Positions 24,001 through 27,000 of a stretch of 64,000 bases of DNA are shown here, piece after piece. The stretch's first letter is position 1. Every line of letters starts with the position of its first letter. Source of the DNA: Escherichia coli (GTDB lineage Bacteria; Pseudomonadota; Gammaproteobacteria; Enterobacterales; Enterobacteriaceae); assembly GCF_030013595.1 (NCBI RefSeq), contig NZ_CP122768.1. One strand, given 5' to 3'. A program made the position numbers.

Positions 24001-27000
24001 CATTCGCGAAACCAGTGCTGCTGATGTGCCGCTGGCGATTGACCATTTTCGCTATTTTGCCTCGTGTATTCGGGCGCAGGAAGGCGGTATTAGTGAAGTG
24101 GATAGCGAAACTGTGGCTTATCACTTCCACGAACCGTTAGGCGTGGTGGGGCAGATTATTCCGTGGAACTTCCCGCTGCTGATGGCGAGCTGGAAAATGG
24201 CTCCCGCGCTGGCGGCGGGCAACTGTGTGGTGCTGAAACCCGCACGTCTTACCCCGCTTTCTGTACTGCTGCTAATGGAAATCGTCGGTGATTTACTGCC
24301 GCCGGGCGTGGTGAACGTGGTTAACGGCGCTGGTGGGGAAATTGGCGAATATCTGGCGACCTCGAAACGCATCGCCAAAGTGGCGTTTACCGGCTCAACG
24401 GAAGTGGGTCAACAAATTATGCAATACGCCACGCAAAACATTATTCCGGTGACGCTGGAGCTGGGCGGCAAATCGCCAAATATCTTCTTTGCTGACGTGA
24501 TGGATGAAGAAGATGCCTTTTTTGATAAAGCGCTGGAAGGCTTTGCACTGTTTGCCTTTAACCAGGGCGAAGTTTGCACCTGTCCAAGCCGTGCTTTAGT
24601 GCAGGAGTCTATCTACGAACGCTTCATGGAACGCGCCATCCGCCGTGTTGAAAGTATTCGTAGCGGTAACCCGCTCGACAGCGTGACGCAAATGGGTGCG
24701 CAGGTATCTCACGGGCAACTGGAAACCATCCTCAATTACATTGATATCGGCAAAAAAGAGGGCGCAGACGTGCTCACCGGCGGGCGGCGCAAGCTGCTGG
24801 AAGGCGAACTGAAAGACGGCTACTACCTCGAACCGACTATTTTGTTTGGTCAGAACAATATGCGGGTGTTCCAGGAGGAGATATTTGGCCCGGTGCTGGC
24901 GGTGACCACCTTCAAAACGATGGAAGAAGCGCTGGAGCTGGCGAACGATACGCAATATGGCCTGGGCGCTGGCGTCTGGAGCCGCAACGGTAATCTGGCC
25001 TATAAGATGGGGCGCGGCATTCAGGCCGGGCGCGTGTGGACCAACTGTTATCACGCTTACCCGGCACATGCGGCGTTTGGTGGCTACAAACAATCAGGCA
25101 TTGGCCGCGAAACCCACAAAATGATGCTTGAGCATTACCAGCAAACCAAGTGCCTGCTGGTGAGCTACTCGGATAAACCGTTGGGGCTGTTCTGATGTGA
25201 AAGGCAGGCAACGTTAATAGTTGTCTGCCTTTGTTTTAGTTGTATAAAGCGGCAGTCGCTTTTAACTCATCGCTGAAAGAATAAATATCATCGAGAGATT
25301 CAATAGGATGGCGGGTTTCGTTTTTCTCTAAGTCAAATAAACCAATATATTTTTGATTTCGATTGAAATGTAATCTACAGAGTGGCTTTCGATTATTGTC
25401 ATCTACAAGTATACCAAAATAGCTTTTTGTATCTCTGTGGACTATTCGTGGTGCATCAAGCACTACGCGAACTATAGCTTTAACAATATGAAATCCTTCA
25501 AGTTCCTCCATAGTAGTAGCAATATCGGTTTCTTCTTTATTAATACATTCTACTTCTTCATTGTGTGAATTCGAATCAATTACAGATAATGACCCACCAC
25601 CTATTGCCGATTTCAATCTTTCGTTTATTTGAGAGTTAATATATTGATTGGCAGCTTTCTTTGTTAATTTTGCAAACGTATCTTTTACCTTTTGTGTTAA
25701 CATACCTTCATAAATTCTTGCTGCAAAGAATTTTACAAAATCCTCTTCAGGATTATTCATTTGTGCATGGAGAACTTTTTAAATTAAACTAACATATTTT
25801 AATTCACCTGCAGCATTAATTATTGATTCCAAATCAAATGCTGATTTAGTAAGCTTCTTTATCTCGGGAACAACTGTTTCATCTAAGTCAAGTAGATCTA
25901 TCTCAAGAAATGGTTTTTCATCCATTTTATTAGGTGCTTCTAAATCAGTAAAAAATTTATAAACTTGTTCATTGGTTAGAATAGATATTCTTGCATTTGT
26001 TACATGAAAGTATCGAAAAAGCTGTGAAGCATGATTTATATTTAGAGGATCGCCAATTTTTTTGCATTCAATGAGAATCTGAACCTCGCTATTTTTTAAG
26101 ATTGCATAGTCAATCTTTTCACCTTTCTTCGTTCCAATATCGCATACAAACTCTGGGATAACTTCGGTAGGATCAAAGACATCATAACCTAACACATTGT
26201 TAATAAACGGCATTACGAAAGCATTTTTGGTAGCTTCCTCCGTTTCAATGACTCCGGCTTGTTGTTTTATTTTTGCGGATAATGAATTCAGCTTATCTAT
26301 AAACTCCATAGACATTATAACTCCTTATATATATTTAATAAAAATGCGTTTTATAAAAATATAGAAAATATTTATATATTAACGCTTTATCATTGGTCAT
26401 AGTTAATGTATAACACACAAAAAATAATGTTTGCACATTGTAAATACAATGGTGAAACAAACTTGATATTTATCAAGAAAATAAAACAATGTCTTTTATT
26501 GGTTGTTTTAAACGTTCAATGAATACGAGTTGGAGCTATAGCAAGACTAGCTTCGATATCGCATGGATAATCTAATACAGATTTTTTAACACCTAATACT
26601 ATGAGTTATATGTAAATTGCGAGCATCCTCGCATCTTTTCAACAAGTTACTGCACACCGTTATTCTCCTTCCGAGCGGCATTCCTGAGTCAACTTTATCC
26701 CCCTGACGGCCCATATAAATCGCGCTATCGTGATTGTTATCGCTAATTGTGTGTGTATCGTGTGTATAATCATGGAAGGGCAGGGATGTGAAAAGTGCAG
26801 ACGTGATCGCCATCCTGAAGCAGCATGGCTGGGAACATATTCGAACCCGTGGCAGTCATCATCAGTTCCGCCACCCTGTTCATCCGGGTCTGGTGACGGT
26901 TCCGCACCCTAAAAAAGATATTAAGCCCGGTACGCTGGCGCAAATTGGGCGTCAGGCTGGTTTAACATTTTAAAATTTCAGGAGGCAATATGTTTTATCC

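What the first reader, a model, noticed from the sequence alone, without database searches (positions are those of the whole stretch)
25755..25785. Single in-frame TAA splits the nuclease-like gene into two ORFs
Seen in sequence: both ORFs are in the same minus-strand frame (26315 and 25760 differ by 555 nt). The upstream ORF ends ...ELKYVSLI-TAA, then six sense codons (KVLHAQ) precede the ATG of the downstream ORF, with no convincing Shine-Dalgarno. This pattern is what a nonsense mutation in a ~359-aa gene would leave (pseudogene, sequencing error or stop-codon readthrough), though a genuine two-gene arrangement is not excluded.
Basis: seen in the sequence. Interest (0 to 1): 0.5.

Follow-up and report, generated by a model that had tools for sequence, protein, structure and literature searches.

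The report
Nonsense-mutated solitary nuclease gene (pseudogene)
One base change (AAA to TAA) has cut a 359-codon accessory nuclease gene of E. coli into two same-frame ORFs, so this is an ordinary inherited pseudogene, not two genes or a recoding signal.

Summary

- **Intact relatives.** The window is E. coli. Its closest complete genome (NZ_CM149870.1) has one 1080-bp CDS at the same coordinates (WP_000061477.1, 359 aa). The window differs from it in the gene at two bases: K179* (AAA to TAA, window 25781) and G116E (window 25969).
- **Population.** Of 189 complete E. coli genomes with the gene, 0 carry the TAA 61-mer and 175 carry the exact intact one.
- **Family.** Homologues down to about 40% identity (1205 clusters at E ≤ 1e-30), including temperate-phage copies, are almost all single proteins of 340-390 aa that span the stop.
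- **Position of the stop.** It falls inside a predicted helix that is gap-free in 75 homologues. The downstream ATG has no Shine-Dalgarno and is Met in only 8 of 75 homologues.
- **Not a sequencing error.** The exact allele recurs in many independent public assemblies. A sister lineage has K179* without G116E, so the stop came first. G116 is invariant in the family.

The intact gene encodes a solitary HsdR-N-type PD-(D/E)xK nuclease of untested function, probably phage defence. It is not a type I restriction enzyme. Interest is low.

The parts
25236..26315 (-). Whole disrupted gene. It is the orthologue of the 359-aa WP_000061477.1, which RefSeq names 'type I restriction endonuclease'. It is a solitary HsdR_N-type PD-(D/E)xK nuclease with a helical region and a C-terminal alpha/beta domain.
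   Evidence: A single 1080-bp CDS sits at identical coordinates in NZ_CM149870.1. The window differs from it at 2 nt. phrog_4225 matches full length at E 9e-130.
25779..26315 (-). 5' ORF of 178 aa plus the premature TAA. It encodes the nuclease domain (residues 26-129 by Pfam), with D69, E83 and K85, and the first part of the helical region.
25779..25781 (-). Premature stop codon TAA at codon 179. The derived base is window 25781 (A on the + strand, T on the gene strand). The ancestral codon is AAA (Lys).
   Evidence: 0 of 189 complete genomes carry the TAA 61-mer and 175 of 189 carry the exact intact 61-mer. Position 179 is K in 53 and R in 8 of 75 homologues.
25968..25970 (-). Codon 116, GGA to GAA (G116E). 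The derived base is window 25969. This is a second lesion, at a residue invariant in the family.
   Evidence: G116 is invariant in 75 homologues of 38-55% identity. The change is absent from the K179*-only sister lineage L013/L025.
25236..25760 (-). 3' ORF of 174 aa, equal to residues M186-N359 of the intact protein. It is the remnant of the same gene, not an independent gene.
   Evidence: Its sequence is identical to the intact orthologue. It has no SD. Position 186 is Met in only 8 of 75 homologues. No Pfam family matches it.
26321..26326 (-). Shine-Dalgarno AAGGAG of the true start codon at 26315. It is the only good ribosome-binding site of the locus.
   Evidence: -8.8 kcal/mol.
25200..26650 (.). 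Low-GC islet (about 26-34% GC against about 50-56% in the flanks) that carries the gene between aldB and hicAB. It is accessory DNA present in about 3.5% of complete E. coli genomes.
   Evidence: for composition. 191 of 5426 genomes carry it, always on the chromosome.

Best explanation
A single A-to-T transversion changed codon 179 (AAA, Lys) of a 359-codon accessory gene to TAA. Translation from the one good ribosome-binding site now ends after 178 residues, inside a long alpha-helix of the helical region that follows the nuclease domain. The remaining 174 codons survive only as an in-frame remnant ORF that begins at an ordinary internal Met. The lesion is real and vertically inherited in an E. 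coli clone. In the window's sub-lineage a second mutation, G116E, then hit an invariant residue of the nuclease domain, as expected for a gene no longer under selection. The locus is therefore a young pseudogene.

Shown: the mutations, their order, their absence from other genomes, the single-protein architecture of the family, and purifying selection on intact alleles. Inferred: loss of function. At most a low level of SD-independent re-initiation at M186, 18 nt after the stop, could yield a C-terminal fragment that lacks the nuclease.

The intact protein is a solitary HsdR_N-type PD-(D/E)xK nuclease joined by a helical region and a flexible linker to a small alpha-beta5-alpha domain. Because phage copies sit in the lysogeny module, its most likely role is a single-gene anti-phage or anti-foreign-DNA nuclease. 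That role is inferred and untested.
For: (1): the nearest complete genome has one 1080-bp CDS at the same coordinates, and the only differences in the gene are nt 535 A>T (K179*) and nt 347 G>A (G116E).

(2): 0 of 189 complete E. coli genomes with the gene have the TAA or the G116E k-mer. 175 of 189 have the exact intact 61-mer.

(3): Enterobacteriaceae orthologues are 357-364 aa. There are 1205 50%-identity clusters at E ≤ 1e-30, and the best 150 are nearly all 340-390 aa matched in one stretch over residues 3-358. PHROG 4225 matches full length. The 15 phage copies listed match as one uninterrupted piece, and all 19 cover at least 80% of the protein.

(4): the AlphaFold model (pLDDT 92.6) places residue 179 inside helix 162-187. 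The alignment has no gaps over 160-190 in 75 homologues. Position 179 is K or R in 61 of 75, and position 186 is Met in 8 of 75.

(5): there is no SD before the downstream ATG.

(6): the exact 178-aa product occurs on at least 15 public contigs, one of which is seen in 20 or more samples. L011 and L012 are 100% identical to the window. The K179*-only allele is listed in 44 blocks of the collection. In 20.5 kb, L025 shares K179* and four other SNPs with the window but lacks G116E.

(7): G116 is one of only seven invariant residues.

(8): intact alleles have dN/dS of 0.08 or less in both halves. Against Citrobacter and Enterobacter, synonymous sites are saturated in five of the six whole- and half-gene comparisons (dS 2.0 in the other), while dN is 0.06-0.20.

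(9): no RNA family matches and the RNA after the stop has no notable structure (z = -0.88).
Against: Loss of function was not measured. The 178-aa fragment keeps the whole catalytic core (D69, E83, K85, Q98, Y102), so residual or altered activity in the K179*-only ancestor cannot be excluded. Two of seven derived SNPs in 20.5 kb fall in this 1-kb gene (binomial P about 0.05), which hints at more than neutral decay but is not significant. Re-initiation at M186 is possible in principle. I could not inspect the reads of the window's own assembly.
Confidence: 0.9

Rival explanations
1. Sequencing or assembly error: the genome really has AAA at codon 179 and the gene is intact.
For: The stop lies next to an A-rich run (ATT TAA AAA GTT). 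The window also carries a rare 1-bp homopolymer difference in mtlR, so some assembly error in the window is conceivable.
Against: The change is a substitution, not a homopolymer-length error. The exact allele (K179* plus G116E) is found on at least 15 contigs from independent runs, including SRR30668523 and ERR14334243, with one contig seen in 20 or more samples. The K179*-only allele occurs in 44 further collection blocks. L011 and L012 are 100% identical to the window over 6.5 and 3.8 kb.
Confidence: 0.02
2. A functional split gene: the nuclease fragment (1-178) and the C-terminal fragment (186-359, made by termination-reinitiation) are both produced and work together or separately.
For: The 5' ORF retains the complete PD-(D/E)xK core. 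An ATG lies only 18 nt after the stop, and from general knowledge SD-independent restarts near nonsense codons occur in E. coli. The K179* allele persists in many isolates.
Against: The cut is inside a conserved, gap-free helix, not in the flexible linker at 240-268. There is no SD, and Met186 is not conserved. Among the listed homologues, none is split at this position outside E. coli; shorter entries are few and scattered in extent. After the stop arose, an invariant nuclease residue mutated. Other E. coli lineages carry different null lesions at other positions (del nt 418, K134*, +A at nt 539), so the split point is not special.
Confidence: 0.05
3. Programmed stop-codon readthrough or suppression yields the full-length protein.
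For: The frame is perfectly preserved downstream.
Against: The frame is preserved because the lesion is young: the gene is 99.8% identical to the intact allele. The stop is absent from all other genomes and homologues. From general knowledge, UAA is the most efficiently terminated codon in E. coli. No downstream structure or RNA family is present. G116E accumulated afterwards.
Confidence: 0.02
4. Adaptive two-step inactivation. Truncation removed a regulatory or targeting C-terminal part and left a deregulated, harmful nuclease fragment. G116E was then selected to disarm it, or the gene as a whole was lost by selection against a costly defence nuclease.
For: The order of events is K179* first, then G116E at an invariant residue. 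Two of seven derived SNPs in 20.5 kb fall in 5% of the sequence (P about 0.05). Several independent null alleles exist in other E. coli lineages.
Against: The enrichment is marginal. K179*-only isolates are numerous, so the fragment is tolerated. The two non-window null alleles tested were absent: none of 189 complete genomes has the del-418 allele, and 175 of 189 have the exact intact 61-mer that also spans the +A site. A few null alleles among very many sequenced E. coli are expected for any dispensable gene.
Confidence: 0.1

Closest known systems
N-terminal nuclease domain of type I restriction enzyme HsdR subunits (Pfam HSDR_N PF04313 and HSDR_N_2 PF13588; structures 3h1t and EcoR124I 2w00)
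   Different: The protein has no SF2 helicase or translocase domains (359 aa in total) and no adjacent hsdM or hsdS. The neighbours are aldB and hicAB. The RefSeq name 'type I restriction endonuclease' therefore describes a domain, not the system.
Type IIG restriction-modification enzymes (BpuSI 3s1s, DrdV 7lo5; PADLOC REase_MTase_IIG)
   Different: There is no methyltransferase or target-recognition domain. Instead the protein ends in a roughly 90-residue alpha-beta5-alpha domain with no Pfam family.
PHROG 4225 'endonuclease' of temperate phages
   Same: The match is full length (residues 3-356 against profile positions 2-352 of 357, E 9e-130). In phages Juicebox, FNU_1P and EG-TP1 the gene lies between the CI-type repressor and the integrase on the same strand.
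   Different: In E. coli the gene is not in a prophage but in a 1.4-kb low-GC islet. In this window it is broken. No member was found with an experimentally tested function in the literature library.
Ordinary nonsense pseudogenes of accessory genes in bacterial clones
   Same: A derived premature stop in an otherwise near-identical orthologue, with no new start signal, secondary damage, and clonal inheritance.
   Different: Nothing distinguishes it.

Membership tests
Nonsense-mutation pseudogene | Orthologues and homologues encode one uninterrupted protein that spans the stop | tested here: met
   The three close E. coli relatives examined (NZ_CM149870.1, ECONIH1, M171-1) each have a single 359-aa CDS. 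The best 150 representatives are nearly all 340-390 aa matched in one stretch over residues 3-358.
Nonsense-mutation pseudogene | The stop is the derived state | tested here: met
   0 of 189 genomes carry the TAA 61-mer and 175 of 189 carry the exact AAA 61-mer. Position 179 is K or R in 61 of 75 homologues.
Nonsense-mutation pseudogene | The lesion is real, not an assembly artefact | tested here: met
   An identical allele occurs in at least 15 independent contigs, and the K179*-only allele in 44 collection blocks. The reads of the window's own assembly were not available.
Nonsense-mutation pseudogene | Signs of relaxed constraint after the lesion | tested here: inconclusive
   G116E at an invariant residue arose after K179*. 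This is one event, so the statistics are marginal (P about 0.05). Intact alleles show dN/dS of 0.08 or less.
Two independently conserved genes | Own ribosome-binding site and a conserved start codon for the downstream ORF | tested here: not met
   SD pairing is -0.4 kcal/mol. Position 186 is Met in 8 of 75 homologues and otherwise mostly Leu or Phe.
Two independently conserved genes | The split falls at a domain boundary and recurs in relatives | tested here: not met
   The stop lies inside predicted helix 162-187, and the region is gap-free in 75 homologues. No split relatives were seen.
Programmed readthrough or recoding | The stop codon is conserved in relatives and followed by a stimulatory signal | tested here: not met
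   The stop is absent elsewhere. The RNA after it folds with z = -0.88, and there is no Rfam match.
HsdR_N-type PD-(D/E)xK nuclease domain | Profile match plus the catalytic D...ExK residues | tested here: met
   [not shown]
HsdR_N-type PD-(D/E)xK nuclease domain | Nuclease activity | not testable with these tools
   This needs biochemistry.
Type I restriction-modification system (HsdR subunit) | SF2 helicase/translocase motor in the same polypeptide | tested here: not met
   The protein is 359 aa and has no helicase Pfam match in any of 75 homologues.
Type I restriction-modification system (HsdR subunit) | Adjacent hsdM and hsdS genes | tested here: not met
   In E. coli the neighbours are aldB and hicA/hicB. 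No methyltransferase is seen in Enterobacter, Citrobacter, metagenome or phage contexts.
Type IIG restriction-modification enzyme | Fused methyltransferase and target-recognition domains | tested here: not met
   [not shown]
Anti-phage defence gene | Protects against phage when expressed | not testable with these tools
   The evidence is circumstantial only: the lysogeny-module location in three temperate phages and the accessory low-GC islet next to hicAB. PADLOC gives no family-level hit.

The most novel reading that the evidence does not exclude
The intact gene is an uncharacterised, very widespread single-gene defence nuclease carried in prophage lysogeny modules. In this clone the K179* truncation removed its C-terminal targeting or regulatory part, and G116E was then selected to disarm the remaining free nuclease domain. 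That would make this a natural two-step record of the domain logic of a new defence family.
Probability: 0.08. Interest if true: 0.4.

Novelty: already known. Interest (0 to 1): 0.12.

Why it matters
For annotation, the two ORFs should be merged and flagged as one pseudogene, not called as two hypothetical proteins. Some public records already name the 174-aa remnant 'Uncharacterized conserved protein'. The name 'type I restriction endonuclease' should also be read as a domain label only.

Biologically the lesion is a routine loss of an accessory gene. The one modest lead is the family itself. It is a large, Pfam-dark-tailed family of solitary nucleases found in prophage lysogeny modules, no member has a tested function, and natural null alleles such as this one could serve as ready-made controls.

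Tried and rejected
- **Sequencing error.** Rejected, because identical alleles occur in independent assemblies.
- **Genuine two-gene arrangement.** Rejected on homologue architecture, helix position, absent SD and non-conserved Met186.
- **Readthrough or recoding.** Rejected; there is no conservation, structure or Rfam hit.
- **True type I or type IIG restriction-modification membership.** Rejected; there is no motor, methyltransferase or hsdMS.
- **Functional link to hicAB.** HicA/HicB neighbour the gene in E. coli and in a Porphyromonas phage, but not in Enterobacter, Citrobacter or three other phages. I treat this as co-location of accessory cargo.
- **Recurrent inactivation as a strong signal.** Other null alleles exist in draft assemblies. 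The del-418 allele is in 0 of 189 complete genomes, so I did not build on it.
- **Sequence search of the PDB.** With the protein and with the profile it found nothing useful.
- **Literature searches.** Searches for the accession, the Pfam identifiers and the product name found no functional study.
- **Repeats and promoter scans.** Repeat search and the promoter and terminator scans around the stop showed nothing above background.

Full report
**1. The observation**

Reading the minus strand confirms every detail.
- An ORF starts at ATG 26315, preceded by AAGGAG at 26326..26321.
- It encodes 178 residues ending ...ELKYVSLI and stops at TAA (25781..25779).
- Six sense codons (KVLHAQ) follow.
- ATG 25760 then opens a 174-codon ORF that ends at 25236.
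- The two starts are 555 nt apart, so the ORFs share a frame. Translating 26315..25236 gives 359 sense codons with one internal stop.
- The downstream ATG has no Shine-Dalgarno. Its best anti-SD pairing is -0.4 kcal/mol, equal to the median for positions inside the gene, against -8.8 kcal/mol at the true start.

**2. What the locus is**

The window is Escherichia coli chromosome (cysE ... selAB, yiaY, aldB, [this gene], hicAB, GH127... xyl, glyQS).
- The gene lies in a 1.4-kb islet of about 26-34% GC, between flanks of about 50-56% GC.
- Megablast finds the locus in 191 of 5426 complete E. coli genomes, always chromosomal and always annotated 'type I restriction endonuclease'.
- In the closest genome, NZ_CM149870.1 (strain HCP5S3_I2), a single 1080-bp CDS occupies exactly 25236..26315 in window coordinates. 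It encodes the 359-aa WP_000061477.1.
- Two other genomes have the same single CDS.
- The window's gene differs from the HCP5S3_I2 copy at two bases only. Gene nt 535 A>T turns AAA (Lys179) into TAA. Gene nt 347 G>A turns GGA (Gly116) into GAA (Glu).

**3. The stop is derived and private to one clone**

A 61-mer centred on the TAA matches none of the 189 complete genomes exactly. The repaired 61-mer matches 175 of them exactly. The G116E 71-mer is likewise absent from all 189.

**4. It is not a sequencing error, and the order of events can be read**

The exact 178-aa product (G116E plus truncation) is in the public protein collection.
- It is encoded on at least 15 contigs from independent runs, and one of those contigs is seen in 20 or more samples.
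- Loci L011 and L012 are 100% identical to the window over 6.5 and 3.8 kb.
- The 178-aa product with Gly116 is listed in 44 further blocks of the collection.
- One such contig (L025, 20.5 kb) shares K179* and four other SNPs with the window relative to HCP5S3_I2, but lacks G116E.

The nonsense mutation therefore came first, and G116E arose later in the window's sub-lineage.

Two of the seven derived SNPs in that 20.5 kb fall in this 1.08-kb gene. That gives a binomial P of about 0.05, which is suggestive only.

**5. The family is a single protein**

- *Close orthologues.* Those in Citrobacter, Enterobacter and Superficieibacter are 357-364 aa; a partial Salmonella record is 334 aa.
- *Distant homologues.* An exhaustive HMMER search of 1.84 billion representatives gives 1205 clusters at E ≤ 1e-30. 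The best 150 are nearly all 340-390 aa and match residues 3-358 in one stretch.
- *Phage copies.* PHROG 4225 ('endonuclease') matches over profile positions 2-352 of 357 at E 9e-130. The 15 listed tblastn hits in temperate phages of Porphyromonas, Fusobacterium, Corynebacterium, Enterococcus, Lacticaseibacillus and others are uninterrupted, and all 19 cover at least 80% of the protein.
- *Alignment of 75 full-length homologues (38-55% identity).* The invariant residues are K30, E55, D69, E83, L99, G116 and E271. K85, Q98 and Y102 are present in 74 of 75. Columns 160-190 have no gaps. Position 179 is K in 53 and R in 8 of 75. Position 186 is Met in only 8 of 75.
- *Selection.* Intact E. coli alleles differ mostly at synonymous sites, with dN/dS of 0.08 or less in both halves. 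Against Citrobacter and Enterobacter, dS is saturated in five of the six whole- and half-gene comparisons (2.0 in the other), while dN is 0.06-0.20.

**6. Structure**

AlphaFold2 with this alignment gives a confident model (mean pLDDT 92.6).
- Residues 1-140 form an alpha/beta nuclease domain.
- Residues 146-239 form a helical region.
- Residues 240-268 are a low-confidence linker.
- Residues 269-358 form an alpha-beta5-alpha domain.

Residue 179 lies inside helix 162-187, so the stop cuts a secondary-structure element, not a linker.

- in agreement with Pfam HSDR_N_2 and HSDR_N and the PADLOC type IIG model over residues 50-208.

**7. What it is not**

- It has no helicase motor and no hsdM or hsdS neighbour, so it is not a type I enzymes' R subunit.
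- It has no methyltransferase, so it is not a type IIG enzyme.
- There is no Rfam match and no unusual RNA structure after the stop (z = -0.88), so nothing suggests recoding.

**8. Likely role of the intact gene (inference)**

In phages Juicebox, FNU_1P and EG-TP1 the gene sits between the CI-type repressor and the integrase, on their strand. Prophages commonly carry genes that protect the lysogen in that region. In a Porphyromonas phage, and in E. coli, it neighbours hicAB. It does not in Enterobacter or Citrobacter. No partner gene is conserved.

The best guess is a single-gene nuclease directed at foreign DNA, with the C-terminal domain as the targeting or sensing part. I found no experimental study.

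**9. Verdict**

This is a young, clonally inherited nonsense pseudogene (K179*) of an accessory solitary nuclease gene, with a second hit (G116E) at an invariant residue. The alternatives of sequencing error, readthrough and a true two-gene arrangement are each contradicted by direct tests.

Other E. coli lineages carry different null lesions of the same gene: a 1-bp deletion at nt 418, K134*, and +A in the A6 run at nt 539. The del-418 allele is absent from all 189 complete genomes, and 175 of 189 have the exact intact 61-mer that also spans the +A site, so this shows dispensability and not a special mechanism.

Interest is low. The practical consequence is an annotation fix.

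Noticed in passing
window 12325-12345 (mtlR 3' end, minus strand): The window has T6 where the near-identical genome NZ_CM149870.1 has T7, so it lacks the base at window 12341. This shifts the frame of the last codons of mtlR and extends the ORF to 251 aa (12157..12912) instead of 195 aa. Only 1 of 5226 E. coli genomes (strain Nord122) shares the exact 71-mer. It could be a real frameshift or a homopolymer assembly error. Three more SNPs lie in the same gene (12329, 12484, 12745).
   Followed up: partly
window 5410-10173 (minus strand): The YadA-like trimeric autotransporter adhesin gene is 474 bp (158 codons, in frame) shorter than in NZ_CM149870.1. It also has dense substitutions and small indels in its repeats at about 8083-8700. 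This is repeat copy-number and sequence variation between otherwise near-identical strains.
   Followed up: partly
window 57166-58161 (minus strand): wecH is intact here (331 aa), whereas the closest complete genome has an ISVsa5 (IS4-like) insertion splitting it. An IS1397 (IS3 family) copy sits at about 41709-43057 in both.
   Followed up: no
window 26788-27400; locus L019 4247-6074: A hicA/hicB toxin-antitoxin pair lies next to the nuclease gene both in E. coli (divergent, about 470 bp away) and in Porphyromonas phage phage019b (same strand, directly upstream). It does not in Enterobacter, Citrobacter or three other phages. This is probably co-location of accessory cargo, but the association was not tested statistically.
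   Followed up: partly
loci L013-L018 (E. coli draft assemblies), same gene: There are independent null alleles of the same gene in other E. coli lineages. They are a 1-bp deletion at gene nt 418 on at least two SNP backgrounds, K134* (A400T), and +A in the A6 run at nt 535-540 right beside codon 179. The 174-aa remnant ORF is listed in 124 blocks of the collection and is sometimes named 'Uncharacterized conserved protein'.
   Followed up: partly
loci L020, L026, L028 (temperate phages Juicebox, FNU_1P, EG-TP1): Full-length homologues of the gene sit between the CI-type repressor (with or without an ImmA-like metalloprotease) and the integrase, on the same strand. That is the lysogeny module, which suggests expression in the lysogen. 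The family (1205 50%-identity clusters at E ≤ 1e-30) has no tested function in the literature searched.
   Followed up: partly
[not shown]
   Followed up: partly
window 25179 (aldB 3' end): A SNP (C in the window and in the K179* clone, T in NZ_CM149870.1) lies 16 nt before the aldB stop codon. It is one of the five SNPs that mark the K179* clone within the 20.5 kb compared. Its coding effect was not examined.
   Followed up: no
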